From NCBI GenBank assembly GCA_002633005.1, contig NMRA01000337.1, positions 372,001-436,000 of the forward strand: DNA of 64,000 nucleotides. Direction: 5' to 3'. The stretch is from Phoronis australis. Lineage: Eukaryota > Animalia > Phoronida. The position numbers and the translations under genes are program-made. The notes beneath the pieces are model-generated. The model was not told where the DNA came from, did no database searches, and saw nothing but the letters and a program-made list of their open reading frames with translations. This document shows positions 2,731 through 24,082 of the stretch, piece after piece; position 1 is the first letter of the stretch; the number at the start of each line of letters is the position of its first letter.

Positions 2731-3292
2731 CTTTAAATAATAAGATTAATGACATTAGTCACCATGAACACAAAAATGTCAAATATGAATAACGCATTGA
2801 ACACTTAGTGAGAGCATACAAGGACCAGTATACAACAGTTGTTGTAGTGAGATTAAAATAAAAACGGTTAAAGAATGGCATACACTGAACTTTGTAATGA
2901 GAAATTAAAATCATATTTCAATTAATAACTTGTTTAAAATTAATAATAGAAAGTGAAAGCTAGCTGCTTTTGCTCTGGTATTAAATTTTCATTATTTAGA
3001 TTACTGAAAATTTTACATTTTAATTTTAAAAAATTCTCAACAATCATATAGAAGAATTTTTTCTATAGAGTTTCCACAAAACAACACTTGATGAACTTTT
3101 GGTTATTTGAATCACTATCAGGAGCCTCTGGAAACTCAATAACTAGTTACCTTGGGACAGGGTCCCAGATTTTGAGAACCAGTCTGGTGCCTGTTATTCA
3201 GGGGAAAATGTTTCTCAAAATGCAGGACACATAACCATCTTAGAATTAAATAACCGAAAAATTACCATCTCATCAAAAAATTTAACACTTAC

Positions 3293-3495
3293 AACACTTT
3301 TGTCAACCGAATCCATGGAGACATTACTAGAGTTGAATGATGTATTTAGTTTACTGTTGTACATCATCTCATGAGGAGAGCCATGAGGTGTCGCCGCTGG
3401 TGTTGCGGCTGTGTGAGTGATGATAGGTGGGTTTAGGTTCAGCTCCATCTCCTGGCAAACTGTGACAACAGGGGTGAGAGCGTTCAGTTTCTTAG
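3293..3495 (-). CDS. Cav3: Cav3 II-III linker exon (AKKLNALTPVV...PPIITHTAATPAATPHGSP...DKSV)
   Basis: Conserved PxIxHTAATP motif; cag acceptor phase 1, donor GTT|gtaagt. Confidence 0.9.
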
Positions 3496-4582
3496 CTGTC
3501 ATGAAACGAACAGGCAAACAAATCAATCTAGACTGAGAGAGCGAGTGTATGTCACATGAAGTGTAATTCTTCTAAAGCAATAAAAAATTAGCATCACGCC
3601 ACTCTGTGCAAGAAAATAACGCCCTCAAGTCCAATTAAAAGACATGCAATACTACAATTACGCATAGCATTAACAAAATTATGCATAGTGTAAACAAAAT
3701 TGACATAAAATTATACTCAGGGGAATTGTTCAACAACAGCATAAGTTTTTGTCTTTTCATATAACAGTTTTGGTAGAAAACTAAGAATTATATATTAAAC
3801 TCATTTTTCTGTTATTTTTAGAATTTAAGTGTGCATGTAACATGAGTTTGAAATGGTTTCAAACACACCTCAAACACATTTGAATTACAACACGTTTGAC
3901 ATAACAAAACAAATATGGTATGATGGTCGTCATTGAACTACTGGAGGTTCTTAGAAAAAGGAGGAAGTTTCACTTAGTGTTTTTAATTAGTAACGAGAGG
4001 CTCTTCACTTTCTGAAGCATTTCTACAATATCGTTTTAGATTCTCATTCGTACCTACAAATTACTCATCAGTCACTGACAAAACTTTTAACATGTTTTCT
4101 GGTAAGTCCACTACTGAGCATGTAATGTCTTTAAACACATTGGGCGAGTTGAAGAATTTCTTAAGTTGGAGACTTTAATGTTTAAGTGCAGCAGTAGTTC
4201 AGTAAAATCTCAGCTGAGAACATATTAACCAACTCGACAAAACACAGCCTACGGTAAAATCTCACCAATTTCAGACAAAAAATTAGTTGCTAGAAATGGG
4301 TTTTTCATTTTCAAAAGCTTCTAACATTGTTGATAATGGCCACATGATTGTCTGATGCTAGCTACAACACTGCACTTGAAAATGGCAAAGCATTAGGTAT
4401 GACTTACGAAAAAAGAGAAAATAAATTCCGAGCCATACTGAATTTTAAATTGATGAGAGTAAAAAACAGCAATTCTTCACTACTTGCCAAAAAAACTAAA
4501 CCTATATGTCGTCTGTCACTTGATCTGCAACTAGAGACATCTGTTGATGAAATCACAAGTAACTCCACGGAAGACAGCTCAC

Positions 4583-4715
4583 CTTTCTGCTGATTGTTTT
4601 TCTCCTCCTCAATGTCTGCTTTTATACCGTCATCATCATCTGTCATGTTGTTCGCCTTAGCCTCACTTTCACCCTGACTACCAAGTTGCGAGTTCTTTTT
4701 CTTCTTCTCTTCTTC
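4583..4715 (-). CDS. Cav3: Cav3 proximal II-III linker exon (EEEKKKKNSQLGSQGESEAKANNMTDDDDGIKADIEEEKNNQQK)
   Basis: Acceptor tttacag phase 0, donor AAAG|gtgag phase 1; both match the flanking exons. Confidence 0.85.
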
Positions 4716-4952
4716 CTGTAAACAATTGTCAATATTTTCATTCTGAGTGATCTTTTGCCAACTAGCAACATTAAAAAGACCAACAGAACACTCAGCCCAT
4801 CAAAATCTCATTCTCATTTCTTAGGGACTTCTAGGAAATTTGTGATTGAGTGCCCAGGGTCTTTTATTGATGATATATGTATCCCATCACCCAAGAGCAA
4901 TATGCCCACAACTTTATGGCAAATGACATGCTTCTAAGGGTGTTCATTAGTA

Positions 4953-6260
4953 CCGTACTCGTCCGCGTTACCGCCCAGGGTGCTTAAATTGGGAATCTAA
5001 AAAATAGGGGGTGGGCGGTAACCCGAGCATGGGGGGTTAAAATCGAAATTTTTTAAAAGTTTGTTGCTTACTGCATGGAGCTACACTGACGTCAGACTTC
5101 AAGCATATCAGTTAAAATATAGGTCGGGGATTGAAGTAACGGACTTCGACGGCCTGAAGTGGAATAGCACACACGATAAAGTGGCGTCGTGATCCCGAGC
5201 ATGACTGGGTTTTTACGTACCTCGGTCGCTGCTGGTCATCTCTTAGAACTAAAGTATTCATACAGGTAGGCATGCGTTCAGCAGGGCAAATTTCTTGAGA
5301 AAAAAGATAGATCAAGCAAAACTCCGCTAGTTCGCGGAGTATTTCTAAGGGAAGCACTTGAAGTTGTAAACGTTTGCTTCCCGCTGGATGCTTAGGCAAC
5401 CAAACACGTGCTAATGATTGACTGGTTGTTCATACTGAATACTTTGAACTTAGTTTGAACAATCAACGTTTCATATACATTGTATATTTCTTTTTGAGTT
5501 CAAAGCCATCACCGCTCTTGTTCAATAAAGCATGTGCTCAACAATCGGACGATATTACTATTAGGCAATAGGGGGGCTCGGTCGGCTGTCAAAATAATGA
5601 AGCAAAACACATCATGTAAAAAGTCATCAGGTAAATCAAAAGTTGGATGTGGACAGAATGTTTGACTTGCGCTTAATGACAAGTTGATTTCTTGCACTGC
5701 TGCTTTCGGTTGGGCGCTTCCATTTTGGCGTCAGAAGTGAAAGGCATTAAAAACATGTGTTTAACCAAGACGGGGAACAGCGAGACAAGTTGGCTTGTCA
5801 CAGTGGACCATTTCTTTTCTTATTTCAAATGCTCGGGATTGTTATCTTTCGTGTACTGTCACGGGGAATCACAAAAAGGTTGGCCATGAACGTGAAATTC
5901 TTGTCAAGTACTGCTTTGCTGGTTCTTCCACAGCAAATGAAATACATTCGAAAACGCCGTCTCAGTGATCAGTACATACCAACGCGAGTTCCGCGCGCGT
6001 GTGAGCCAAAGGAAACAATTGTCTCCTTCAGTAAAGGGCATGAGAATACGGGTATTTTACCACCATAGTAAGGCAAGGTACCAGTTTCGCTAAAACTGAT
6101 TGATTGTCACAGAAAGGTAAGCAAGTTGTGCACGTTTTGGAATCTTAATGTTGTGCGACGAATGTTCACAGAAGCACAGATACTTTTAAGGAAGTATAGA
6201 TCATGAAAAATTGGGGGTGGGCGATAAGCCAAGCATGGGCCGTAACCCGGACGAGTACGG
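4953..6260. mobile_element. Non-autonomous TIR DNA transposon (Tc1/mariner-pogo-like), about 1.3 kb
   Basis: Termini CCGTACTCGTCC...GGACGAGTACGG flanked by TA on both sides; diverged, truncated second copy at ~55938-57160. Confidence 0.85.
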
Positions 6261-6269
6261 TAATGTAAT

Positions 6270-7120
6270 ATAACCATTAGATAACACAGAATACGTCAAA
6301 CCCGTACAAAAATGGAAAGTATTGTCATTTTCCCGGTAGAAAAACATCAGTGAAATTTTATGAAAATCCAGCAAGGAACTCCAGAGATACAAAAGCCAAG
6401 TGAAAAAAAATTGTCATCGAGTAGCAGCAGTAGTTGCGTTTGTCCATCTGTTGTCAAATTAATAGGAATACACTTGCAAAATTTCCAAGTTTTTGCAAGG
6501 GATTTAGGAAATACAGCTGCAGATGCAAAAAAAGGCACTAAGGGGCACTTCAACAGTTGCATCCACATAAATCAACGTCACTTGCAGTCTTCTTTTCAGG
6601 AGCACATCTGCCAATGCTCATATTGACCCTTCAAAAGAGGTATGGCAGACAGAGAGGCCAACGCCAAAAAAAAATCGAAATTTTTTTTAAAATGGCCAAT
6701 AGGTAGCACAGAATAAGTTAAATCTGTCTGAAACCTATTTGCCAAATTAAAGGAACTTCAAAAATACAGAGGCAAACATAAAAAACTAAAATTGCCACTA
6801 AGTGGGAATAGCAGTTATCGGATCAATCCCAAATTCACGGTCATCTGTCGTCACCTCTATAGGAGCACATCTGCCGTCACCTCCATAGGAGCACATCTGT
6901 CGTCTCCTCCATAGGAGCACATCTGTCGTCACCTCCACAGAAGCACATCTGTCATCTCCTCCATAGAAGCATATCTGTCGTCAACTCCATAGAAGCACAT
7001 CAGCCAAATCCCATTAAGATGGTTCATGGGGTTTAGGAAATACAGCAGCAAACGCCAGATGGCAGATGCCTGGAGATCAGGGCATTATGCAACCCATTAT
7101 GTAAACGTGGGTGCATAAAA
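6270..7120 (+). mobile_element. Degenerate pearl/HINE-like repeat with an internal ~26-bp tandem array (6840-7005)
   Basis: Same modules as 54789-59898 (aaaattgccacta.., tttaggaaatacagc, 3' hairpin plus gcataaaa). Confidence 0.6.
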
Positions 7121-8839
7121 GTATAATGCAATTTTAAGTTTTAATAACGTCAAATTGATTTTCCGATAAATAGGTGCTTATGTAGCAGGTGATAAGAACC
7201 CTGAAATTGGATAATGACCAAAAAAATCATGGAAACACAGAGTGCTGTGAAACATAGCACAAAAAAGCTGTAACGAACGTGACCGCAACATTCAACAAAA
7301 TTTATAAAGTCCAGTATTTGTAGCAATTTTATTTGCAACATGCAGTCTGAATTTGAAGAGGCTTTACTGCAATCAGCTGACCAAATGATAAAAAGCACCA
7401 TTCTTTTGACAATCTAATTGTCAAAACTTTTCTTATAAAATAAACAGTCATGATTAATTTCGCTTGAGAGTTCCAGTGGCCGGTTGCATGAAACACTCCC
7501 AAATAGGTACTCAACTAAGTTCCCTAAACCTACTGAGTATTTTTGGACTTGTGAAAACATCGATTTTCCTTCCTTATATTGTTTTAGTTTCATTACTAGA
7601 TAACTTTTGATTTGATACAAATCGAGAGTGAACTCTACGTTAAATTGTCAATATTATCGAAAATAAGAAGGGATCTTTTGATGCAACACCCACAATTTAA
7701 GGACTAAGTCCCTATTTATTTTCAATGAACTCTGGGCTCAGTTTTTATCTACATTACTAGAAAATGTCATTAATCAAAAAGGAGCTCATAATGAAGATGA
7801 AAATATTGCATCTGTGAGTCCATACAGACACTAATACTCAAAAAGACTTAGGGACCTTAGTTGAGTCCCTATTTGGGACTCTTTCATGCAACCGTTCACT
7901 GATTATTGTATTTCACAGAGTTAATATCCAAGGTGTTTATTTTGGGAATCCCAAAAGCCACATGATGGACAAAAAGCTGAGACAGGTATTTTTAAAAATT
8001 TTGGGGTGGGTACCTAGTGCCCTAGATGTTTATAAAAATGTTGACTGTGTGCTAGCTGTCATTTCTAGTAATTCATTGCAAAAGCTTACATGGGCATGTT
8101 GTTTTGAAGACATTTTGTAAACCAAATGAAAGAAAAAGCGGTGAACAAATATTCAGATGCTCTAACCATACAACATGAAACAGTGCCATCATCGACTTCA
8201 CGGCAAAATTTTGCTAGGCAAGAAAAACAAACAACACAGATAGCACACTCATAATAAATCCTTTGAAGCTTCTTGTCGGAGTTTCACGGCTTCTTTAACT
8301 AGCGTACACAGGACTCCATTTATTAGGCAACATGTGGTGTGAGGCATCAAACGTGAATATTTACACGCACTCAAGTTCTGTGATAACATTTGTTGGCACT
8401 AGAATAAGACAGCTTTGAGTGACAGCACCTGCTGAGGCAATATGCTGTTTTGATTTGTATTTTCTGTTTATGGAAAAAATGGGTTCATACACCCACTGAC
8501 AGGTGATTATGTAAAGCTGAAATTTAAGAAAATCTGACGGTGAACTTGAGCAGGCTAGAGCGATTAAAACAAAAATTTTCAAAAAATGGAGGGAGTTTAG
8601 TGACACCTGGTTTTAACTCAGGGAAATACAATTAGAGTTAAATAGAATAATGAAAGGAAGAGAAATCAGCATAGAACAACATGTTTAACATACATTCCAT
8701 TTCAGACCACACAAAACAGAAATCAGCAGGCAATGCATTCACTTTTGAGAGACTATGACCACGCAGCCAGCACAAAGGTCAAAGTTAGCCTCAATATTAT
8801 TTTGGGAGGAGAGTGGTTCACACCTTTTCTGAAACAGCT

Positions 8840-9990
8840 GCTTGGAGCAGCGGTGCATTGAAATGTGCCCACGAATGCACCGCAAAGGGTGTGCTTCAAA
8901 GGGTGTTTATTTGTATCATAAAAAGGCCACTAGATAGCGCAAAATACGTCAAATCCATCAGCGAATGGGAGCATGTCATTGTTGCTTCTAATAGAAACGA
9001 TTTCCTAAATTTCATAAAAATCCATCAAGAACTTCAGAGAAACAGAAGAAAACTGCCATTAGGAGGCGCCACAGTCATCGCAGTCGTTGAAAAATCATTG
9101 CCAACTGTACTCTTAACACTAAGAACAACTATGCAAATTTTCACAATCATCCTTAGAGTGATTTGGTTGATAGAGGGGCCAACGCCAAAAACAGACTAAA
9201 AACAGTACAAATGGCCCCAAATGTCACAAAAAATGTCAAATTCATTTGGAAATGCGAGGACAGCTTCAACTCACTAATAGATGCCTATCTGCCAAATTTT
9301 ATGAAAATCCAATGAGGACTTACGAAGATACAGAGGAAAGTGTAAAAAACTAAAATTGCCACTAGGGGGCACACTAGTAGTCTGATCTTTCCGAAAGTCG
9401 TCGTCGTTGTCCGTTGTCAACTTCATATAAATGCACTTGCTAAATTTGATAAAGATCCAGTAGAGCCTTTAGGACATCCAGCCATGGGCGCAAAAACAAG
9501 CAAAACTGCAACTAGAGGAGGTGCCACAATAGTCTAAATCATCAGAAAATCATCCACAGCTGCCCTCTTCATAGCAAGAACATGTATGGCAATTTTCACA
9601 AACATCCTAAGAGTGGTTTGTTTGATGGAGGGAAACAGTAAAAATGGCCACTAGGTGGCACAAAGTACCTTGAATCCGTCTGAAAATGGGAGGATAGCGT
9701 CATCTCACAGATTGCTTAACTGCAAAATTTTATGATAATACGTTGAAGACCTTCAAAGATACAGACTGAGGGAAACATGAAAGTTAAATTGCCACTAGGG
9801 GGAACACCAGTAGTCGATAGGTCTGAAATTCATCGTCATCTGTGGTCAGCTTCATAGGAACATATTTGCCAAATCTCATTAAGATCCTGTGAGAGGTTTA
9901 GGAGATACGGCTGAGGACGCCGGGCAGCAGACGTCCAGACAGAGATGACGGCAAGATGCACCCAAATATAAATATGTGGGAGCATGAAAA
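8840..9990 (+). mobile_element. pearl/HINE-like non-autonomous element with internal tandem modules
   Basis: 5' gaaatgtgcccacgaatgcaccgcaaa, repeated ccactagggggc modules and 3' cccaaatataaatatgtggg hairpin shared with 54789-59898. Confidence 0.75.
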
Positions 9991-10507
9991 CCTAGTGAGG
10001 TGCTGTGAGGTTACTTAGTATTCACAGAACAATGAAAAAATAAATAATAGAAACAAACACAATCATGTGACTTGACAAAGTATTATGTGGTCTGAACTGT
10101 CAGAGAGACTTAACCAAAATGAATACCACCAAGGTACGGCATCCGCAAGATGTCTGCAAGCAGTTGATTCAACAATTTCTAGCAAAACTAGTGCCCAGGC
10201 ATTCTATTTGAGCAAGCAATTTGTGAGTGGCAAAATTTCCAAAATTTGTAAACTGAAATATCATTTTTACTGAAGTAGGCTCCATAAATTTCAAAACTTT
10301 TGGACATTAAAAATAATATATCAAAACAGGATCTAAAACTAAGAAATGATAATGTATGAAGAAGTATTTGTCTTAACTAAAAAACCTGGAGGGCTAATCC
10401 TTTTGGTGACATACTGTTCAACAGTAGGTAATCAACCAGACATCTAAAGATGGTCTACCGCAGATCTTAGAATTTCTGCTCAAGAGAAATTGTTGAAAAA
10501 CGCTTAC

Positions 10508-10534
10508 TGACTGATGGACGGCATGGTTACAAGG
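10508..10534 (-). CDS. Cav3: Candidate 27-nt Cav3 microexon (PCNHAVHQS) just after IIS6
   Basis: Branch-like cctaat/ctgac, strong pyrimidine tract ctcttctctcctctag, donor TCA|gtaagc, phase 0/0, no stop. Confidence 0.5.
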
Positions 10535-10625
10535 CTAGAGGAGAGAAGAGTCAGAAGAGATTAGGTGAGACAAGCAAGGGTGGTGACCAAGTGCACTGTG
10601 TGCGGGTAGACATGGCCTGGCATAC

Positions 10626-10781
10626 CTCTGTAGAAAACCCTTCCACCAATATGGCAACTAGAAGATTCAATAAAACGTAGTTGCCAAATGTCATCAGGGC
10701 AACGAAATAGAGAGAGGCCCAAGGCGAAGTCTTTTCCATGCCATTGTACAACACTGTATTCCAATCTTCTTGAGTCAGAAT
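10626..10781 (-). CDS. Cav3: Cav3 domain II selectivity filter + S6 exon, canonical copy ([52 protein letters not shown])
   Basis: 156 nt, acceptor tttcag, donor GAG|gtatg, phase 0/0; close to Cav3 consensus. Confidence 0.97.
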
Positions 10782-10963
10782 CTGAAATAGGGTAAAAAAT
10801 CATGCTGAACAAATTCAAGCCTTAAAAAAAACTGCCTCGAGTCATGTGCTGGTCTATTCCGTAACAGTAAACTGACGGCAACCAGTACTGCCACCTGGTG
10901 TGTGTAAAATAAACCAACACAGGGCACCCTGGCAGTTGAGCAAACCAAAACAACAGTATTTAC

Positions 10964-11125
10964 CTGTAGCTGAGTGGAGAACGTTTGGACAATAACTGCC
11001 ACCAATAGACTGATCAAGACATAAGCCCCAAAAGATATGATTGCATGAAAATAGAGGACAGACCAGGGAGAAATCTGTGTCATGACTGCGTATGTTATAG
11101 CATTCCAGTCTTCGACGGTTAGTAT
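10964..11125 (-). CDS. Cav3: Cav3 domain II selectivity filter + S6 exon, divergent duplicate (ILTVEDWNAITYAVMTQISPWSVLYFHAIISFGAYVLISLLVAVIVQTFSTQLQ)
   Basis: 162 nt, acceptor tttcag, donor CAG|gtaaat, phase 0/0, ungapped alignment to the 10626-10781 exon, no stops. Confidence 0.85.
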
Positions 11126-13139
11126 CTGAAATAAGCACAGTATTAATTGAACATATAAAGAAAGCCCTACATGTATGTACAACAAACAACACAGCCAAAT
11201 ACCAGGCAGTTAGGTTCAGGGTACTCTAATCAATTTGAACAAAGGATGTACTCCTGGACCATTCAGAACCAATAGGTTGCCTATTTATTGAGCATCATGG
11301 AAGCGTTAGTGGGTGATGAATACTTCATATAACATCCTATTATGACCAGAACATAATGGTCCACTTCATATAAGCCAGTTTTAACAAAAAATGATAGCGG
11401 ATATTTTAATTATAACGGATTTAGGTTTATCACTTATTGCAGTACCAAAGCAGCTATTAAGTAAACTTGAATTTTAGGGTTGGGGGGAGGGTGGGGGGAG
11501 ACTTCATCTATGGCACTGCTGTCATTTTTCAAATGCAATGTTAGACTTTTGTTGACTCGTAAACGCCGCGTGATATCAGAGGTAACTTGATGACATGCAG
11601 ACAATAGTATAGAAAATAGACCAGAATCGAAAGCCCAGGTCCACTGCAACAATGACTTCTGATGCACGTACAACTAAGCAACCATCATAGGAAAAAAAAG
11701 GAAAACAGTTGAAACTGGGCCTCAAAATATATCTAATTAAAACTAAGATTAGCCAAATTATTCTTTCTCATGAAAGATTCTCAGGGCATGCGCCATCAAA
11801 TCCCACTGATGTTAAATTTCGTCACCAAAAACTGACAAACTATAAATCAAGTTGACATATTTTATCGTCATCTATTTTGCGCGGGGTACGCCGCGAGCTA
11901 TGTTGCAGAGTAAACAAACTGAGGATTAAATATCATTTATTATGATGTAAATAGAAGAAATGAAGACTCTGCAAGATGTGCATGGAAAAAACGAATATCT
12001 GTGATGTCACTGGATGTTAACTAGTCCACAACTGTACACGTTGCATATGAAAAAAGACTGCAGCCATTTAGGTGACATCATCTGTCTGTCTAACCCAATG
12101 TAGACCTTCATGCCTACCAATAAAATACAATATCACAGTTTTAGGTGTTTTCTGGAAACCTATCACAATTTGCCCAAGCAAAAATCCACTCTGAAATGGA
12201 TCTTAGTTTAGGATCATTTATTCAAAGGCCCTGTTTAAGAGCACATCCTTGTGTTCAAGTAGCAGACGGGAGTCCTTAAATGTCAGATAAAGTTTCAGGT
12301 GAACATGTTACGAATTAATAATATTTAGGCTAGAATCTTGAACACAGTCATGTAAAAATAACACAACCTTCTAAATTATTCATCTCACAGGTTTTGGATG
12401 TCAAATGTTTCCATGTTGACAATACTTACGTACAGCTGACCCAGATTTTGAGAACCAGTTTTATACCTACCTCACAGTTCAGTAGGAAAACTGGTTCTCA
12501 AAATGCTGTACCCCTGTGATTATTAAGAATTTTTTTATAGAATTAAAACAAAATAGCAATGTTGTTAAAAATGAGATCCTATTTTAAACAAGACAATAAC
12601 TAACTACGGTATCAAAGTTATATAATACTAGGTACAGATTTACAAGTTAGAATGATTAACATTAGATTGAATGCTAAAGCCCTAGACAACAATAATTAGG
12701 TTAAAACCGTCAATTTCAAACTAGAATTAATCACGATTGCACAAGCAGACCCAAGCACAGACACAATCAATATTCTATTCATAATGCATGTGTGTAAATT
12801 AAGATTGGCGAATTGCCATATTAAAAAGCTTTGAAGTGTGGTCCACAGCCAAAAATTAAAGAACAAAGCTTTTTGAAGATGACACTGTCTCTAATGCTGC
12901 TGCAGCTCTTAACCTGCCTACTCAATATGTAAAATGTAGTTTGAGTTGACCACATAGCATTATCTAAGATTGGTGAACAATTACAAGTAATTTGTAGGAT
13001 TAAAAAGAACTGTCAGGATGTTAACACTCGCGACCAGTGACAATAAGTTGGCTTGATACAGCAAGCCATTTTAGGCACGCAGCAAATAATTATAACCTGA
13101 GAAAGGGATAAGTTGAAATCAGTTTTATTTTAATGACAA

Positions 13140-13730
13140 ATTGTCAATGGTAATTAAGTCATATTTATGGTCAATGGTAATCAAGTCATATTTATGTTAA
13201 ATGGTCAATGGTAATCAAGTCTTTTTCATGGTAAATGGTACCCAAGTCATATTTATAGTAAATAGTCAATGGTAATAAAGTCCTTTTTATGCTAAATGGT
13301 AATCACGTCATATTTATAGTAAATGGTCAATGGTAATCAAGTCTTTTTAATGGTAAATGGTAATCAAGTCCTATTTATGGTAAATGGTCAATGGTAATCA
13401 AGTCCTTTTCATAGTAAATGGTAACCAAGTAATATTTATAGTAAATGGTCAATGGTAATTAAGTCCTTTTTATGGTAAATGGTAACCAAGTCATATTTAT
13501 AGTAAATGGTAAATGGCAATCAAGTTCTTTTTATGGTAAATTGTCAATGGTCACCAAGTCCTTTTTATGGTAAATGGCCAATGGTAAGCAAGTCCTTTTT
13601 ATGGTAAATGGTCAATGGTAATGAAGTCACTTTTATGGTAAATTGTCAATGGTAATCAAGTCCTTTTTATGGTAAATGGTAATCAAGTCACTTTTATGGC
13701 AAATTGTCAATGGTAATTAAGTCATTTTTG
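13140..13730. repeat. Minisatellite, ~26-34 bp units (gtcaatggtaatcaagtcctttttatggtaaatg)
   Basis: Visible tandem array. Confidence 0.95.
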
Positions 13731-15164
13731 CAAGAAGGCAGGCCAGCAGAAAGTAAATAGAAGCATTCTCTGCACTAGCATTAGAAAGATCTCAGGGCAA
13801 CAAGTAGCCATTCAAAATAGTAGCATGATGCGGACATTTTGGACTAAATGATGCAATAAACCCAACTTTCGAATTACGGTTGTGTAGGACTCTTCAAATT
13901 TAGCTATCCTAAAAAAACTTTATCTCAGAAATGGCTCATCAGATTCATATGAATGGCTCATCAGATTCATATGAAACTGAGATACTAAGCTTTATGCACT
14001 GTTCTCCAAAATGATGAGATTCCTTTCAAATTCATTCACTTTTCCATAAGCAGTTATAAAAATATGACATTTATGATATTTATAAAAAAGGAAAATTGCA
14101 TAAAAAGAAAGCAAAATGACAAATTGGAGATCTCATATAGAACATTCAGCAAATTTGTTATTGACACCATTTTTCATATATTGTACGGTAACCTTTCTTA
14201 TCTGCTAAATGTTAATAAAAATTGCCAATTGGTATATAAAGTCAAAGCAAAATTTTACAGGATTTCTACTTTCAAAAATGCGAACTTTTCTTGAGTAAAA
14301 TTCTTTGCAGAAATAAGGCTGAATGCGGAGAATTGTGGATAGCGTCTTCCATAACTTTAAGCCACTTAATGAACAATGCAATATTGGTCTCCTTATTAAG
14401 ATTAGAAATGATTTGAAGATTTGAGAAGAGTTGACAGGTCATAATTGCTTCAAACTAGTCCCATTAAGCCGCTTGTCACAACGGGTTAGTTTTAGTCACC
14501 CAGACAGGGAATTCTAAGCGATTTATTATAAGAAATTTTATTTCAAACAATGGCTCAACATAATGCCTTGTAATACATAGTAAACAAGATGACATTTTTA
14601 ACAACAGGACATGATTTGCAGCAACAATTCTTTTTTTTCACAATACGTGTTTCAGACGTTCATTTACAAGAGCTTCAAAAAAATTAATTTGTACCCAAAT
14701 CCCTGTAGTTGGCATGACCGGTCTCACTAGGGGCCACTGCTATCGTCAACAACTTAAAGGGCAGTGTCATCACTAATATTTGCAAATAATCACCAGTCGT
14801 ATTAGAAATAAGTTTTATATCAATTTTCGCAAGAAAATGTTTTCAAATTGTTACATTAAAAAAATCTTAGTGCGCATGAGATGTATCAGTGCTACCTCGC
14901 AATTACTTCGTTTACTGCAATGCCATTTAACTACCAAAGATGGTGTGAACGGTTCAATTAACTTCACAGTTGACATCGTTGCTCCGCTGATACCGGAGTT
15001 AAAGTTAGTAGGAAAGGGTCTTTAGAGGTCAGTACATAAACTCAAATAACATTATTGCCAAACGAAAACAAAAGAGCAATTACCAATAATTTTAAAAGCT
15101 CAACATGCTGGCCAAAATTGAAAGAGAGCCTGATCATGAAACAGAAAAGGTGGTAATTTGGAAA

Positions 15165-15485
15165 ATACACCACAGCACTGACTTACCATGATTGAAATGA
15201 CTAGGCAGTTTGACTAAGTATACACCAGCACTGACTTACCATGACTGAAATGACTAGGCAGTTTGACTAAATATACACCAGCACTGACTTACCATGATTG
15301 AAATGACAAGGCAGTTTGACTAAATATACCCCAGCACTGACTTACCATGATTGAAATGACTAGGCAGTTTGACTAAATATACACCAGCACTGACTTACCA
15401 TGATTGAAATGACTAGGCAGTTTGACTAAATATACCCCAGCACTGACTTACCACGATTGAAATGACTAGGCAGTTTGACTAAATA
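15165..15485. repeat. 53-bp tandem repeat, about 6 copies
   Basis: Unit cagcactgacttaccatgattgaaatgactaggcagtttgactaaatatacac. Confidence 0.95.
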
Positions 15486-17845
15486 ACCATTTTGAAATAT
15501 ATGCATAAAACATTTAAAGAGAGCCAACATGTACTGACAATAAAGGTCATTGCTGAGACAACAATGATGAAAATAATAATGGCGCAGAACCAGTAGCGTG
15601 CTGAGGTTTGGTGATGCTTGGGGGCGATTTTTTAATGGATGCCCCCTTTTCTCTACTCAAATGCATGGACCCCAGTACTAAGAAAAGTTAAGAAAGATGA
15701 AACATGAAACAGAAATTTTATTCAATTTAACTACAAATCAGCTACAATTTCAAAAAGTTTATTCATTTTGATCAGATGCCCCCCATGTGGATGCCTGGGT
15801 CAGTTGCCCTGTCGCCCACACCCCTTCTACAAGGAACATAAGACTACAGCCCTGACTATTTGTGATCATGTTTGTCATCTGGAAAGTACACATGTACTGA
15901 GTACAAATAACCCATATGTTGAACCATAAGCAAAAGAGAGGTGCAACTTCTTAGTTTTACAGGCTCACGCAAGGTGGTGCTGTAGTATGTCACTGACATA
16001 CAGTGTCTAGCAAAAATAGACAACTGGTCTCAGTAACTGTGATAACATGCACACACACCATTTCATTTATTATAGGCAGTACAAGTGTGTCTAACTGGCT
16101 GGAAGTAAAAAAACACCAGCACAACGTACATGACAATTACATGTGGGTACACGTTTCGTATCGTCATACGATTTTGACATTTTGGACCCACCCAAATAAA
16201 ATCTTAATGTCTACGTTAAAAATTACAATAATAGTAAGGCCACATTTTACATTACGTATACTAAAAGGCTATGGACCAGACCAATCTAAAACCTTCTCAA
16301 CTCCCCAGGAGCATACAATGGATGCAACCCTTGTCAGTGCATACCGAGAACTCCAAACACAAATACTGTAAAAGTTTCTGATAACATGATTATTTTAAAG
16401 AGAAAGATATCCAAGAGTGAAATTTTTGGCAATGTGATGTGACTGCATTTCTATTGCTATTGTGGGCCAAATGGTGTTGTGATAACACATGACACATTAT
16501 CTAAGCATTAGTATTGCAAACAGTGAGAGCACAAAACTAGATTATAGAGTGAAATATCAATTATTCAAGACTCGCTGTGTTAAAACCAACTTGAAAGTCA
16601 AAATATTATCTGTATCCATACACACACACCTGACATAAGATTAAGGTTAGGTTAACAGCTATTGTATAAAACAACACAGAATATTACATCATGACCTATC
16701 ACTACCTGGGGTGGATTTAGGCTACTGCCTACAGGCACTGGGCGGTTACTGCTACACAAACTACACGTAACGATAACAGCAATATACCACATGAGATGAG
16801 AGAGGCTCTTGTTAACCTCAAAGTCACCCATCATGACACAAGGATACACCACAGCAAATTGAATTACAGGCTCATGTATCTATACAGATGGCAATCATAG
16901 TAAACGTTATAGATGAAACTACGAATAAACAAATTCACGAAAAGACATTTGTGCTTGCCAAGAAGTCCACTTTAAAATACCATACAAGATCATGTCAATG
17001 TGTCAACAGTCTTCATTTTAAAGGCGAAGGCAACCTTTTTCCATGTCATTTTGAGCTAAAATAAGGTTGGTTGGTTATCCTAGACATATTTTCCACTTAA
17101 TTACAGCTTTTCGTAATTTTACAAATTACTCGTCCGCTACTCCGGAAGTGACGTTTTAGGAGGCAAGCGTTTCCCGCCACTTGGTTTTGCGTTGACTTTA
17201 CCGTGCGAATCTGTTCTATTCTACTTTTGTTTTGTGCTGTTTTTCAACAATTGTCGCCACCACTTTCCATCNCTGCCCTAAATTACTCAACCGTATCCAG
17301 TAAGTATCGTGACATGGTGTTGAAGAATAACTCTGCATGATGCAGGCTAACTCTACATGATGCGGGCAATGTGAGCCCCCAAGGTACGTCATTAGAGCAA
17401 AGATCATCTATTTGTACAATGTTTTGTTTTCACAACTAGTTGTCAATGAATACAACTGCACTTTGTTCAGCGTATATGATGTTCTAACAGCATTGTCGTT
17501 TAGTTCCTGCTATTCATTAGTATAGTTAGGATGAAACAGGCTGAAGCCGTTGGTAAAACTGGTTTTTAGCTGGAAGTTAAGACAAAAGCCAATATAGACT
17601 TATTGAGAAACACGCCCAGAGAAAACTTAAGCATGCATTTCACTCAGGTCAACTTGACAAACGCAACTGAGGATGTTTATCAAAAGAGAGGTCAACGTAT
17701 CAAATATAATTTAAATTTATAAGAACTTATGCACAATTACAATCTTTGTCTAGCAAATATACTGAAGGTTGGGAAATTAAAAACAGAATCTGCAACCACT
17801 TGAATGTCTACAACGTGTAAATTAGTAACTAGGTAGTAAATTTAC

Positions 17846-18002
17846 CTGGAAGACCGTGACAAAAGCCCACAACAAGCTATCAAAGTTCGGCCGCGAACAA
17901 TGACACTGGCTGGTTAAGGTTGAATTACGAACAGCACAGTCACAGCTAGATCCGTCTGGAAGCTGGCAAAATTTCCCGCCAAACAAACTCATACCTAGAA
18001 CG
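17846..18002 (-). CDS. Cav3: Cav3 exon 12b, long five-cysteine domain II turret ([52 protein letters not shown])
   Basis: 157 nt, phase 2/0, donor CAG|gtaaat; C...CxC...CxC pattern typical of invertebrate exon 12b. Confidence 0.95.
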
Positions 18003-18610
18003 CTACCACCAGCCATGCAAAAGAAAACAACACAATTGCCAGTGAACGAACACAAACCATCAGTTTGAAGTGTAACTAGAACCCAGCCGTATTCCACTCT
18101 ACGTATTGTGGATAGGAGGGAAGGTCAATAAAGGCATAATACAACATATTGCAAGGTGTTTTGTCCACAAAGTAAAAAATTTTCCCAAATTTTTTTGGAA
18201 ACTGTATGAATTAACTACTGCAGTTTTGGAGAAAATATTGCAAGCATTATGCAAACCATCAAAAATTAACCATGGCACAGTTGTTTTGTTCAAAATGCTG
18301 CTTTTTTAACATCCCCTGTACCAGCGAGTAGGAATACGGCCACGGGCGCTACAGCAAGTAATTCTACATCTGAAAGCACAGCATGGTGACTAAAGGCAGG
18401 ATTATCGTGAGATACCAGGGATACTACATGGTTCTAGAGCCAGCTTCTCTCTGTTAGAACGGTCCATGCTTCATGTTTCTAGCTTGGCAAAGTTTTTTCT
18501 TTGACTTCTCCAAGCCAACGCTAGAAACGTGAATGGCCATGCATGAAACAATGAAAGGGGGATGGGCTATATACATGCAGGGTATAAGCGGCCTAGTCAC
18601 TTGGGTATAC

Positions 18611-18728
18611 CTGGAATACTGTTACTATCGCCCATAACAAGGAGTCAAAGTTGGCGCGACTTCTCCTTTTGCGACCATCGTATGTCATCCGGTCAAATTT
18701 GCATCCAAATAGGTTCATGCCTAATATA
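18611..18728 (-). CDS. Cav3: Cav3 exon 12a, short domain II turret ([39 protein letters not shown])
   Basis: Not in the ORF track; read by hand. 118 nt, acceptor tctctctacag, donor CAG|gtatac, phase 2/0, paralogous to 17846-18002. Confidence 0.95.
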
Positions 18729-19451
18729 CTGTAGAGAGATAGTGTCAGTTGGAGAGAGGGCACCAGGTTATATTAAGGTTATGAGTAATGCTAAAAAAAC
18801 ATCCTAATTTGGCGATCTTCGCAATATGATACATTAGAAAAAACAGTTAGAAATAACTGTTTTAAAAAATTTCGAAAGTTGCAACTTTTACAACGTTATT
18901 GAAGAAACTCAACAAGAGCATAAAACTAATTAAAATAAATGTTTATAAAACTTTGGTAACTATGTGCAATGAAATTAGGTCCTGGCCTAGATTTGGTGTT
19001 TCCATAAAGCTATTTTATCGTAATAAACTCAAGCATTCCCACTCTGGTCGAGTCAAATAACGTGAGTGAGGAAAATCCCATTCAAACCAGTTCTATAGTG
19101 TGACCAGTTTGATGTCTCTGAGTTTGCATCAAGGCAGCCATTTTGCATTATGACTATGAATGCCTTCTTTTAAAATTTTAAGAAGCATGGAGATATAATC
19201 CAGTCAATGGCAGATTGGTATAATGTTGAAAATTGAATTTTAGACACTTTTTTTTCCACAAAATATACACTTTTATTGAGTTAAATTATATAGTTTGAAG
19301 GTAGCTAAATGCACAGTCTTACTCATAACCTTAAGTTAGTAATTGGGGATTAGAAAGTTGAGTCTTGGGTACTGTAAACAGTGTACAAGAGTTACCATTA
19401 ACTATTACCACATATGGTAATTAGCCTACCATGAGGTTAAATAGTGTTTAA

Positions 19452-20069
19452 GGATATCTCAAACCTTATTAAAAAATTGGCTGTTTTTAGAATATTTCAC
19501 ACATGTTTAGCAAAAACACCTAATCTTCATTCTCGGAGAGCTTACAATATGAAAAAAGATTTAGAAACACCGGTAATCTGACGTTTTGCGGTTTTCTTGT
19601 GATCTAGTGCTCACGGCACGCGTTCACCAGATACTCGATTTCTATTCTACATTTAACTTGGTTTCTTTCAGTCTCCCTGCCACCTGCTTCAGCATGTGGT
19701 GCGTACTACAGTGTACTGTTGACCTATTTTAAAAGGTCAAGAGATATACTCCTCCCCCTGACCTACTTTCACTCATTCATTGTCAAGTGACTTAACAAAA
19801 TTAGTGACAATTCAGTCGGCATCATGAGTGAATGTTGAAATAGACCAAGGGGTTACTTTGCTATGAATATACATTTAAAAATAGAATTTTGACCTAAAAA
19901 ACTTGGCAACATAATACTAATAACAGCACATGAATAAAAACATATTTTTATAATATCCGAATGTTTTTCTTTCAGAAAATGTATACGTTTACTAGTAATA
20001 ATATGTTGACATTGCCTGTTATTTGAATATCACTTAGAATGGAGTTCACTAAATAAGGATGAGATAACC
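19452..20069. mobile_element. MITE with TTAA target duplication (Kolobok-like)
   Basis: TTAA|GGATATCTCAAACCTTATT...AATAAGGATGAGATAACC|TTAA imperfect TIRs; related ends at 51910 and 53463. Confidence 0.65.
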
Positions 20070-20404
20070 TTAATGTCAGATATTAAACTTAGCCAACATC
20101 AAACGGGAATTGGCTCGTGAGAATAATGGACAAAAGATTCGATGAATTTGATGAGTAAACACAATTTGACATTAAAAACACGAGCAAATTTTACTCTCTT
20201 TAATTAACATTCCTGTTAAAAAATGAAGTTTTTTAATAATACAATAAAAGTTCTGCTACAAGTGTAGTCACATAAATATAATGTTAAACTACACGATTTC
20301 ATGTGGATGAATGTTATTAACCTAACTAGGCACAACCTTGGTTAATAACATTCACCCACATGAAACACGAGTAGTTTAACATAATTTTTATACGCATACA
20401 AATA

Positions 20405-20586
20405 TACACACACACACCACGTGTCACACACACCAAGCGTCACGCACACCACGCGTCACGCACACCACGCGTCACGCACACCAAGCGTCACGCACACCAA
20501 GCGTAACNCACCAGAAAGACAAAACTATTTGATCAAAGGCGACTTTATATATACACACACGCACACGCACACGCACACGCACACGC

Positions 20587-20617
<31 letters not shown>

Positions 20618-20618
20618 T
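20405..20618. repeat. CA/CACG-rich micro- and minisatellites
   Basis: (cacaccaagcgtcacg)n, (cacacg)n, (ca)n. Confidence 0.9.
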
Positions 20619-21010
20619 ATTTAACTTATAAACCACCTTTCTGACAGCTGTCATACAATAACGATGTCACAAGACCATACAATAACCAGGTTATTACACA
20701 GGCAACTAACACAGTTATTGTATGGACGTCTTAAGACATATGTGGTATACTTATATCACGACACAGTACATGGAAACCCATGGTTAAATAAAAAGCAACA
20801 TTTTCAATCTAGAACAATTAATTTGTAGCACAGAAAGGAAATCCATTCAAACTTCCTGAATTCCTTCTACAGATAATGTTTTCCAAAATTTTTATCATTT
20901 CTACATGGCAACTTGCACGTTTCTTTAAGTAAATGAATTTAAAACACTAAACCATATGGATACAACATGAAAACAACAACCTAGGGGCACTAAAGCTTAT
21001 ATATCCTCAC

Positions 21011-21196
21011 CTGAAGATGAACATAAATAAGACTAATAAGACGAAGAAGGTGGCCACATTGTCCATAGTTCTCACCATCACCACCAGCTGGCGCTTCAAG
21101 GCTGGCATGAAACGCACCAACTTGAGAATACGCAGCAAGCGGAACGTTCGCAACACAGACAGACCACTGTTACTGCCCAAGAAGAGCTCTACCAAG
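21011..21196 (-). CDS. Cav3: Cav3 exon, IIS3-S4-S5 ([63 protein letters not shown])
   Basis: S4 voltage sensor; phase 2/2; donor AG|gtgag. Confidence 0.97.
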
Positions 21197-21659
21197 CTAG
21201 AAGTAACATGTGGAGTTGGTAACATGTGGAGTTGAACAAACTGATTAATGAGCAAAACTTGTCTCATGTTACCAAGGTAACAGAAACACCAAGGTAACAG
21301 AAACACCAGTCTGGTATACAACTCTCAAGCTGCTATTAACCTATCTTGCATCAACAAACTCTTGATCAAGACAATTCACCAAAATGGTCTCAACATGTTC
21401 TGTACTCAGATTAGAAGTGATTTGTGGGTTTGAAAAGAACTGACAAATTGCTATTGCCGACACCAGGTGGACACATCAATAAGGGTTGTTATATCATTAT
21501 GGACAGTGAGTGATGCACAAGTTTTCCATGAGTTGTTGACACTGTTACACTGAGTTGTGATTTGCTGATTGTTAGCCAATCCTGTCCTGGTATCTTTGTG
21601 AGTTAGCCATCGTGGCACCCATTCTGTGAATAAAGCTAGACAATGGTGGATGTTTTACT

Positions 21660-21750
21660 GCTGAAACATGTCGCTGAAACATGTCGCTGAAACATGTCAC
21701 TGAAACATGTCGCTGAAACATGTCGCTGAAACATGTCGCTGAAACATGTC
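21660..21750. repeat. 13-bp tandem repeat (gctgaaacatgtc), about 7 copies
   Basis: Visible tandem array. Confidence 0.9.
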
Positions 21751-21949
21751 ACTACATTGTAGAAAAGTTAATTGTCATTATTCAATTTGTTATTAAGTTA
21801 GGAAACGAGAATAGATGTACGTTAATATTACTTATATTTGATTTGTTAATTGTTACTGTCACATTCGGAAGTGTCAACTATGCCCCATTCAGGCTGGGTA
21901 CAGATTCTTATATTATTGGTGTTAATGACCAGAGTAAACAAACACTTAC

Positions 21950-22101
21950 CTAATGACAACAATGACAGCATCAAACAAGTTGAAGCCATTACTGATGTAG
22001 CCAAAGAAACCTTCAGCCAAGATCTTAAGTATCATCTCAAGGACAAATATCACGGTGAAACATATATTACTGTACTCTATAGCCATTGTCAGTTCCTTGG
22101 G
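21950..22101 (-). CDS. Cav3: Cav3 exon, IIS2-S3 ([51 protein letters not shown])
   Basis: Acceptor tttcag phase 0, donor AG|gtaag phase 2. Confidence 0.97.
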
Positions 22102-22221
22102 CTGAAACAACACAAAAATAACAGGATACACAATATGCATTAAATGTAGAGCATAAAAACAAAGTTTTTGAATAGAAACAGCAAGAAGGCAAACAGCTAT
22201 AGCAGTAAGAGCATCAACTTA

Positions 22222-22502
22222 GTGTCAGTCTTGCCATATGCGTGTGTCAGTCTCGCCATATGCGTGTGTCAGTCTCGTCATATGCGTGGGTCAGTCTCGC
22301 CTTATGCGTGTGTCAGTCTCGACATATGCGTGTGTCAGTCTCTCCATATGCGTGGGTCAGTCTCGCCATATGTGTGTGTCAGTCTCGCCACATGCGTGTC
22401 AGTCTCGCCATATGCGTGTGTCAGTCTCGCCATATGCATGTGTCAGTCTCACCACATGCGTGTCAGTCTCGCCGTATGCTTGTGTCAGTATCGCCATATG
22501 TG
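22222..22502. repeat. 20-22 bp minisatellite (atatgcgtgtgtcagtctcgcc)
   Basis: Visible tandem array; explains the repetitive ORFs here. Confidence 0.95.
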
Positions 22503-23923
22503 TAGCTACGATAAAATCTCAATGCAAATCATAATAGTGGACACAATGCGGCAGACAAGGCTAAGTTCTTTTTTTCACTAAAGAAATGTTTCATCATTTG
22601 AAAGGTACATTTGAAAGGTGCATAGCACAGCTGATATTTTGAGAAACTGTTATCCTTCACAACTGCAGTGTCAGAGGCTTTATTGCAACTGTGCTTCTTC
22701 ACAACTACAGTGTCAGAGGCTTTATTGGAAAAGATCAGTTTTGGCAAGTAACAATAAATCCTGGTCAGATCATATCTAGACTGACTGGGCTGCGCTGTTA
22801 AAAATAAAAGATAAGTCAAAAAATGTTTGAACATAAACCAGTAACAATTCTGAATTCCTCGTCAAATGCTGATCATGTTTTTGAATTACTAAAATCACCC
22901 AAGTACAACCAAAGTTAATTAGAGAATCTGTCCAAACCCACATTACAGTTTCACTAACTCTTTATGGCCATTCCCACTGGCTCTGAACACTTAACTTTGG
23001 TCTTTAATCAAACTTAACAGCGCAAGTTAACTCTGAAGTAAAGAGGTGGTTTTAACAGCTACAATGGGAACCCACAACTTCAATGTCATTGGGGTTATTG
23101 GCAGGGGTCAGTGCCTGCGCTTGCCAACAGCGAGCAGTGACTGGTTAATATTTCTTAATATTTTGTTATATTATCTATTATTTTGGCAGTGTCAGCATGC
23201 CCTTTCATTTTATCCATGTGTTGGTTGAATTGTTTACTACAAAAAATCACTGAACGTATGGGGTACACAAAATGAGTTCCCATCACACCTTCTTTGTTCA
23301 GATCAACTGTTAGCCTACTTGAGAGTCAATGTTTTAATATGCCACCTTCCTGTGCATCACAATCTTACCAACATGGTGATCATTGCCTTGAAAAGTTGGG
23401 GAGAGGGCGAGGTGCTTCCCATATTTGTTGGCAAGCACAAAAACAGCAAAGCATATGACTGACGGTCATATTAGCTCCACCTAGCGATAACTTTGCTTAA
23501 CTAGATTTTTTAATAACTTTGAAGACGATGGGAACACTAACGCTTATCTTTGCGGTTAATTATACTTAACATCGAAACTTGGATAGTAGTGGGGAGTTAA
23601 CTATATGGTAAAGGGTCTATTGAAACATGGTAAATAAGTGGCCTGCATGTTTTCATACCAGGCAAAAGACTGGACACAGTAGCTAACAAAGGAGCAAGAT
23701 GTTATCAGATGTTCACAATCAGAACAAGTCTGGTTAGGTCATTGAGCAGGAGAACACCCTGATGATTAGTGTGATCTACATAATTATGATATTGGCAAAC
23801 TTGTAAGATACAAAAGCCATGCTTGTAATATCCCTAGTTAAATGTCTGACCACAAATAATGACTTCCAAATCTATTGCCTTGGTGTGATGCAGTATATCT
23901 AATATAGTCTACAAGTCAGAATT

Positions 23924-24082
23924 ACCTGCTTATGGTACTCAATACCCAAAAACTCAAAGTGAGTTACCTGCTTATGGTACTCAATACCCAAAAACTCAAA
24001 GTGAGTTACCTGCTTATGGTACTCAATACCCATATACTCAAAGTGAGTTACCTGCTTATGGTACTCAATACCCATACTCAAA
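23924..24082. repeat. 42-bp tandem repeat spanning the Cav3 IIS1 exon end and its splice donor (four donors)
   Basis: acctgcttatggtactcaataccca repeated at 42-nt spacing. Confidence 0.95.

What the first reader, a model, noticed from the sequence alone, without database searches (positions are those of the whole stretch)
10626..11125. Duplicated, probably mutually exclusive exons encoding the domain II selectivity filter and S6 gate of a T-type channel
Seen: two tandem exons 182 nt apart, both phase 0/0 with tttcag acceptors and GT donors, both starting ILTxEDWN. The downstream copy is canonical. The upstream copy is ungapped and stop-free but about half divergent: TQED>TVED at the filter, LYNGMEKT>TYAVMTQI in P2, [10 protein letters not shown]>FHAIISFGAY, the conserved S6 Asn LNLL>ISLL, and VEGF>VQTF. 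The filter E-D-W, SPW, LYF, FG and YVL are kept, which suggests purifying selection rather than decay. Known: invertebrate Cav3 genes swap the turret exon 12a/12b to change Na+/Ca2+ selectivity. I am not aware of a described alternative exon for the filter+S6 segment itself, and I cannot run a literature search. Inference: including both would add an extra transmembrane helix, so they should be mutually exclusive, giving a channel with a switchable inner pore and gate.
Basis: partly seen in the sequence, partly recalled or inferred. Interest (0 to 1): 0.92.

Follow-up and report, generated by a model that had tools for sequence, protein, structure and literature searches.

The report
Spare pore exon, T-type calcium channel
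An invertebrate T-type calcium-channel gene carries a second, old and intact copy of the exon that builds part of the ion filter and the inner gate; it likely lets the animal swap in a pore that opens and closes differently, but use of the spare exon in RNA is not shown.

Summary
Observation confirmed. A spiralian Cav3 gene (minus strand) has two phase-0 copies of the exon after 12a/12b (filter-P2-IIS6): 11125-10964 (divergent) and 10781-10626 (canonical), 182 nt apart. They share 29 of 52 residues, but only 1 of 14 fourfold sites; neutral-decay simulations fail (0 of 27,000; 0 of 2,000), and the spare exon has strong splice sites. So it is old and was kept by selection as pore-coding sequence. 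Splicing is untested: RNA depth was near intronic background and no exon joint was listed. No orthologue was found, and none of 80 other animal Cav3 loci has a duplicate. The filter Glu, 'beacon' Asp and main gate Leu-Val are kept, so a gating/pharmacology variant is more likely than a Na/Ca switch. New: this gene's exon 12a has Ala where 73 of 77 short turrets have the Na-switch Lys. Either/or pore exons are known (NALCN 15a/b, Cav1.2 8/8a, Cav3 12a/b), and this scan noted similar pairs in other channels (TRPC, Cav1, CNGB3, SK) on other DNA; this Cav3 pair was not found in print. New variant of a known kind.

The parts
10964..11125 (-). Divergent duplicate exon ('13-alt'): end of P1, repeat II filter, P2 helix, IIS6; 54 codons, phase 0/0
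   Evidence: ion-transport-like by ESM features, score 0.93
10782..10963 (-). 182-nt intron between the two copies
10626..10781 (-). Canonical exon ('13'): filter-P2-IIS6, 52 codons, phase 0/0; has Leu where 98 of 100 Cav3 segments have Phe (Cav3.2 F1007)
18611..18728 (-). Exon 12a (short turret): one Cys only, Ala at the position of the Lymnaea Na-switch Lys
   Evidence: position inferred by alignment to Lymnaea 12a/12b and PMC9694082
17846..18002 (-). Exon 12b (long, five-Cys turret); Pro at the switch position
21011..21196 (-). Exon 11 (IIS3 to IIS5), upstream of the 12a/12b pair
4583..4715 (-). Probable next exon (start of II-III linker), phase-0 acceptor compatible with either copy
   Evidence: inferred from splice sites and frame

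Best explanation
The Cav3 gene holds an old tandem duplicate of its repeat II filter-P2-S6 exon, kept by selection, that is likely spliced in instead of the canonical copy in some cells and would give a T-type channel with the same acidic filter ring but altered gating and blocker sensitivity. Shown: two intact phase-0 copies, saturated synonymous sites, fold-compatible substitutions, strong splice sites. Inferred: either/or use, because two P2-S6 hairpins in a row would add a membrane crossing; exclusion would need splicing regulators rather than steric hindrance or nonsense-mediated decay. Inferred: together with 12a/12b this gives up to four repeat II pores. Predicted effect: kept are the filter Glu/Asp/Trp and gate Leu-Val (Cav3.2 E974, D975, L1010, V1011); changed are Q973V beside the filter, N1003A and F1007I in the cavity and II-III fenestration, the S6 Asn N1008S, and I1013V, E1016Q and G1017T at the cytoplasmic end. 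These point to shifts in activation, inactivation and window current more than to a Na/Ca switch.
For: Codon-position identity 32/41/18 of 52, fourfold sites 1 of 14, bootstrap dN/dS upper bound 0.30. Neutral decay since duplication: 0 of 27,000 simulations reach the observed protein identity, third-position divergence and no stop together. Late decay: pore-HMM score 70.5 against 34.4 +/- 9.3, 0 of 2,000 stop-free simulations with 21-25 changes reach it; 6 of 23 changes equal the gene's own repeat I residue (5 of 2,000 simulations reach 6). Acceptor above 99.3% of 579 intronic AGs and donor above all 757 intronic GTs under a small matrix from 12 exons of this gene. Residue roles: PMC11143251 passages (N1003, F1007, Q973, L1010/V1011, alpha-to-pi change of IIS6); PMC8422349 passages (Cav3.3 I860 in IIS6 alters gating; I860 is position 44); PMC5599482 abstract (S6 Asn affects inactivation). 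Family habit: ten independent tandem-exon events in human and fly Cav genes (PMC9741552 passages).
Against: No spliced read is shown: depth in the 641-nt bin holding the exon was 0.35, 0.47 and 0 in three RNA runs, like several intron-only bins, and none of the 15 joints listed (of 114) joins exons. No orthologue: no hit; among 150 best representatives none has more of the derived than of the canonical residues. 15 of the 23 changed residues occur in 0 of 100 Cav3 repeat II segments, and the S6 Asn is lost (Ser in 1 of 100), so the product might not conduct. No mechanism of exclusion was found.
Confidence: 0.55

Rival explanations
1. The exon is used, but its product is a silent or dominant-negative channel. 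Either the substituted S6 does not open, or both copies are included in frame, or the 182-nt intron is kept and the protein stops after repeat II. Splicing would then act as an off-switch or dimmer for T-current.
For: Loss of the S6 Asn and of many near-invariant residues. Double inclusion is in frame (162 nt). Cav1.2 e21+22 is a non-conducting dominant-negative precedent (PMC5059693 abstract). The frame stays open through the intron to 10778.
Against: An off-switch would not need a filter, Trp/Tyr/Phe/Gly core and hydrophobic S6 kept through synonymous saturation: 15 of 2,000 simulations keep all eight core residues, and S6 hydrophobicity is above 98.6% of simulations.
Confidence: 0.15
2. A once-functional alternative exon that has recently fallen out of use and has not yet decayed.
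For: No expression shown. No orthologue found. The donor sits 6 nt downstream of the homologous position.
Against: Both splice sites are among the strongest in the gene; no stop or indel. The searches do not reach close relatives' genomes and missed proteins over 2,000 residues for this query, so absence is weak evidence.
Confidence: 0.17
3. The exon is an ion-selectivity switch that took over from the 12a lysine: the Q-to-V change beside the filter Glu and the rebuilt P2 helix would lower calcium selectivity, alone or with the basic 12a turret.
For: Exon 12a has Ala at the switch position, where 73 of 77 short turrets have Lys and none has Ala; K1067A makes Lymnaea 12a behave like 12b (PMC9694082 passages). 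The P2 helix, which the turret contacts, is heavily changed.
Against: Glu and the 'beacon' Asp are kept and no Lys or Arg is introduced. The lysine rule is not universal: human Cav3 channels are calcium-selective, while the single-Cys turrets retrieved carry Lys, and annelid 12b-type turrets carry Lys too. The co-occurrence rests on one genome.
Confidence: 0.1
4. Neutral duplicate or assembly artefact.
For: The window has gaps (949 N) and many repeats.
Against: The copies are only 58% identical in DNA with a strong codon pattern; neutral models are rejected.
Confidence: 0.03

Closest known systems
Protostome Cav3 exons 12a/12b (Lymnaea LCav3, C. elegans cca-1, Drosophila Ca-alpha1T)
   Same: Same gene, same repeat, tandem duplicated phase-matched exons; this gene has that pair as well.
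   Different: 12a/12b end before the filter (PMC4436565 passage) and are shared across protostomes. The pair here is the next exon (filter to S6 end) and was seen in 0 of 80 other loci.
NALCN exons 15a/15b (repeat II) and 31a/31b (repeat III)
   Same: Mutually exclusive duplicates of a four-domain channel's filter exon; exon 15 spans the P-loop and the proximal part of S6 of repeat II (PMC3557258 passages).
   Different: NALCN swaps the filter residue itself (E or K). Here Glu and Asp are kept, the exon covers all of S6 including the gate, and the gene is Cav3.
Vertebrate Cav1.2/Cav1.3 exons 8/8a
   Same: Mutually exclusive exons carrying the S6 gate region (PMC12149502 passages; G406 in helix IS6 per the PMC6449482 search listing).
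   Different: Repeat I of L-type channels. Whether 8/8a include the filter was not checked; from recall they start after it and are much less divergent in S6.

Membership tests
Cav3 (T-type) channel gene | Repeat II pore closest to Cav3 rather than Cav1, Cav2 or Nav | tested here: met
   Best four PDB hits are T-type for both copies; nine window exons group with spiralian Cav3.
Cav3 (T-type) channel gene | EEDD filter ring | tested here: inconclusive
   Repeats I and II have Glu; repeats III and IV lie outside the window.
Tandem duplicated mutually exclusive exons | Homologous adjacent exons, same phase, intact splice sites | tested here: met
Tandem duplicated mutually exclusive exons | Both copies under purifying selection | tested here: met
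   (between-copy test only; no cross-species dN/dS)
Tandem duplicated mutually exclusive exons | Each copy found in mRNA, never both | tested here: inconclusive
   Low depth, no exon joints listed
Tandem duplicated mutually exclusive exons | Exclusion mechanism (steric, frame/NMD or RNA pairing) | tested here: inconclusive
   In-frame double inclusion; 182-nt intron; only short, probably chance, inverted repeats; no Rfam match
NALCN-type filter switch | The alternative exons differ at the filter residue (E versus K) | tested here: not met
   Both copies have E-D-W
Canonical Na-permeable Cav3 exon 12a | Turret Lys and three-Cys motif | tested here: not met
   Ala and one Cys in the window; Lys in 73 of 77 and three Cys in 65 of 77 retrieved short turrets
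Functional channel variant | Conducts current with distinct properties | not testable with these tools
   Needs heterologous expression

The most novel reading that the evidence does not exclude
A lineage-specific Cav3 has lost the classic turret-lysine sodium switch and instead builds a two-by-two repeat II pore by splicing (12a/12b times 13/13-alt). The alternative inner pore works without the S6 asparagine thought to be conserved in all such channels and resets gating and possibly ion preference: a natural experiment on the T-type gate.
Probability: 0.25. Interest if true: 0.8.

Novelty: new variant of a known kind. Interest (0 to 1): 0.6.

Why it matters
IIS6 of Cav3 is almost invariant from cnidarians to humans, carries disease mutations and forms the site for T-type-selective blockers. 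A naturally selected version with 23 substitutions, including loss of the S6 Asn, in an otherwise identical channel would show which of these residues are needed for low-voltage gating, inactivation and drug binding. It is testable with four constructs. The unusual exon 12a also tests how general the turret-lysine rule is. The limit: swappable pore exons are a recurring theme in ion channels, and this pair is seen in one genome without expression data.

Tried and rejected
Own genome: none held, so no paralogue or repeat III/IV check. RNA: no RNA holder listed by index; four same-species-label runs were offered and laid once over 3100-22300; the result was dominated by intronic repeats and is uninformative on junctions; reads resembling human DNA may also be filtered. 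A base-level view of the two exons was not obtained, so splicing stays open. Orthologue searches with the divergent peptide: 10 candidates and 0 hits among 96-2000 aa proteins; no candidate among 29-95 aa; 598 pattern matches and 0 confirmed in metagenome contigs; best single-stretch identity 57% among the 150 listed of 598 representatives; ESM Atlas gave generic ion-transport clusters only. These are weak negatives (word filters, 50% clustering, length limits). Duplicates elsewhere: 0 of 80 metagenome Cav3 loci, of which 58 have at least 600 nt upstream, 37 have that on both sides, and 27 show the end of exon 12 upstream (17 distinct peptides); the loci are redundant. Extra HMM hits in 14 loci read as repeats I, III or IV by sequence or position. 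Two fetched proteins with a repeated segment (P0168, P0195) carry identical copies, probably model artefacts. Gene conversion from repeat I rejected: DNA identity 46% against 45% for the canonical copy. Docker/selector pairing: 15 inverted repeats of 10-24 nt in 10300-11800, none convincing. Literature: eight searches found no report of this pair; 'exon 13' occurs 0 times in PMC5379919, PMC4436565, PMC9694082 and PMC3376122. PMC4002102 (Senatore 2014 JBC) is not held, and no supplements were read; alignments there could bear on novelty. No structure or complex was predicted: a 54-residue piece would only echo its homologues.

Full report
Observation. On the minus strand there are two exons, 11125-10964 (162 nt) and 10781-10626 (156 nt), each with a tttcag acceptor and a GT donor, 182 nt apart. 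They translate without stops and align without gaps over 52 codons; 29 residues are identical. Both match repeat II of T-type channels best. tblastn with fetched Cav3 proteins and splice-site inspection place them in a Cav3 gene running from at least 36636 down past 4583, directly after the exon 12a (18728-18611) and 12b (18002-17846) pair. I call them 13-alt and 13; the number is my extrapolation from exon 12. A pore HMM finds no third copy in the window. On a tree of nine exons and 27 fetched proteins the gene falls among spiralian Cav3s (fork support 88/86, not starred), outside the sampled gastropod, bivalve, cephalopod and annelid clades, on a 0.66 branch; the exact place is unsupported.

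Is the spare copy selected? Identity by codon position is 32, 41 and 18 of 52; 1 of 14 fourfold sites is identical; pS is 0.82 and pN 0.29, and the bootstrap upper bound of dN/dS is 0.30. If one copy had drifted freely since duplication, 0 of 27,000 simulations (nine time depths) reach the observed protein identity, third-position divergence and absence of stops together. If the 23 changes came from a late neutral phase, 25% of 10,200 simulations are stop-free; among those, 2.2% are as conservative and 1.4% have as hydrophobic an S6. Against an HMM of 57 pore segments built without it, 13-alt scores 70.5 bits, against 34.4 +/- 9.3 for simulations (0 of 2,000 reach it); six changes match the gene's own repeat I residue, without DNA similarity to suggest conversion. 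The simulations omit indels and assume the ancestor equalled the canonical copy. Its acceptor outranks 99.3% of 579 intronic AGs and its donor all 757 intronic GTs under a matrix trained on 12 exons of this gene, a crude measure. So the exon is old and was kept as pore-coding sequence. These tests cannot exclude very recent loss of use.

Is it spliced? Untested in effect. No RNA holder was listed by index. In three raw-read RNA runs of the same species label (about 18-19% of each read) the 641-nt bin holding 13-alt had sense-type depth 0.35, 0.47 and 0, the bin holding exon 13 had 0.88, 0.44 and 0.34, and several intron-only bins had similar values (for example 12715-13355: 0.32, 0, 0.30). The 15 joints listed of 114 are all repeat-derived. 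Mutual exclusion is inferred from topology: two P2-S6 units in a row would add a membrane crossing. Double inclusion is in frame, the intron is long enough to be spliced by my inference, and no convincing RNA pairing was seen, so exclusion would rest on splicing regulators.

Relatives. No orthologue of 13-alt was found. None of 80 metagenome-derived animal Cav3 loci has a second copy; 58 of 80 have at least 600 nt upstream and 27 of 80 show the end of exon 12 upstream, and the set is redundant. The fetched full-length proteins visible (output partly cut), including snails, bivalves, octopus, an annelid, a nemertean, arthropods, nematodes and deuterostomes, show only canonical segments. The pair therefore looks lineage-restricted, but close relatives were out of reach.

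What would it do? With Cav3.2 numbering (position + 969, from E974), 13-alt keeps E974, D975, W976, the core Trp/Tyr/Phe/Gly and the gate residues L1010 and V1011. It changes Q973V, N1003A, F1007I, N1008S, I1013V, E1016Q and G1017T, rebuilds P2, and puts His at 996. Fifteen of its 23 changed residues occur in 0 of 100 Cav3 segments. In human structures N1003 and F1007 line the II-III fenestration and cavity, Q973 and F1007 are among the ligand-contact residues that differ from high-voltage channels, and IIS6 undergoes an alpha-to-pi change (PMC11143251, passages). Changes at Cav3.3 I860, position 44 here, shift gating and window current (PMC8422349, passages), although Ile to Val is milder than those. 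The S6 Asn is described as conserved in all Nav, Cav and TRP channels and affects inactivation in NaChBac (PMC5599482, abstract); one unnamed Cav3 fragment also has Ser there (P0133). Selectivity in invertebrate Cav3 is attributed to neutralising the Asp after the repeat II Glu (PMC9694082 and PMC10120453, passages), and 13-alt keeps that Asp. I therefore favour a gating and pharmacology variant (0.55) over an off-switch (0.15), a recent relic (0.17) or a selectivity switch (0.10).

An unexpected neighbour. Exon 12a here has one Cys and Ala at the position where Lymnaea 12a has Lys and 12b has Ala (alignment). Of 77 distinct short-type turrets retrieved, 73 have Lys, 1 Arg, and 3 (five-Cys nematode forms) Thr or Met; none has Ala. 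In Lymnaea, K1067A makes 12a behave like 12b. The classic sodium switch is therefore predicted to be missing or rebuilt here; the turret has a run of Arg and Lys that could substitute. A link to 13-alt is a guess from one genome.

Comparison with known systems. It works like other tandem duplicated pore exons: Cav3 12a/12b, which end before the filter (PMC4436565, passages); NALCN 15a/15b, which span the repeat II filter and proximal S6 but swap E for K (PMC3557258, passages); and Cav1.2 8/8a (PMC12149502, passages; PMC6449482, search listing). A survey counts ten independent events in human and fly Cav genes, with a single event in Ca-alpha1T (PMC9741552, passages). It is not a NALCN-type filter switch, since the filter residue is unchanged. 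Eight searches found no report of this pair; the library lacks most subscription papers, including PMC4002102, and I read no supplements. Other papers opened: PMC5379919 (passages), PMC3376122 (passages), PMC10510735 (passages), PMC5059693 (abstract and outline). Earlier notes of this scan describe similar pore-exon pairs in TRPC, Cav1, CNGB3 and SK genes of other genomes; look-ups by sequence and by place found nothing like this stretch. They are unchecked and only show that the theme recurs.

Verdict. Real, old and selected; use in mRNA and function not shown; new variant of a known kind; interest 0.6.

Noticed in passing
window 18611-18728 (-): Exon 12a lacks the turret Lys (Ala instead) and the two intra-turret Cys, and has a basic Arg/Lys run; 12b has Pro at that position.
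   Followed up: partly
window 10508-10534 (-): Possible 27-nt phase-0 micro-exon right after exon 13; splice sites are middling (78th and 86th percentile), so doubtful.
   Followed up: partly
window 23920-24080 (-): The end of the IIS1 exon plus its GT donor is tandemly repeated about four times, giving several candidate donors.
   Followed up: no
window 10626-10781 (-): The canonical exon has Leu at the Cav3.2 F1007 position (Phe in 98 of 100); F1007L gives ML218 resistance in Cav3.2.
   Followed up: partly
window 8869-10150, 11433-12073, 16561-17842: Abundantly transcribed intronic repeats; many reads run on into unlike sequence.
   Followed up: no
P0078, P0011, P0106, P0122: Teleost 'Cav3-like' proteins with a divergent repeat II filter and S6, some annotated as short.
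   Followed up: no
P0205, P0222: 12b-type long turrets of Capitella and of an unnamed protein that groups with it carry Lys at the switch position, unlike molluscan 12b.
   Followed up: no
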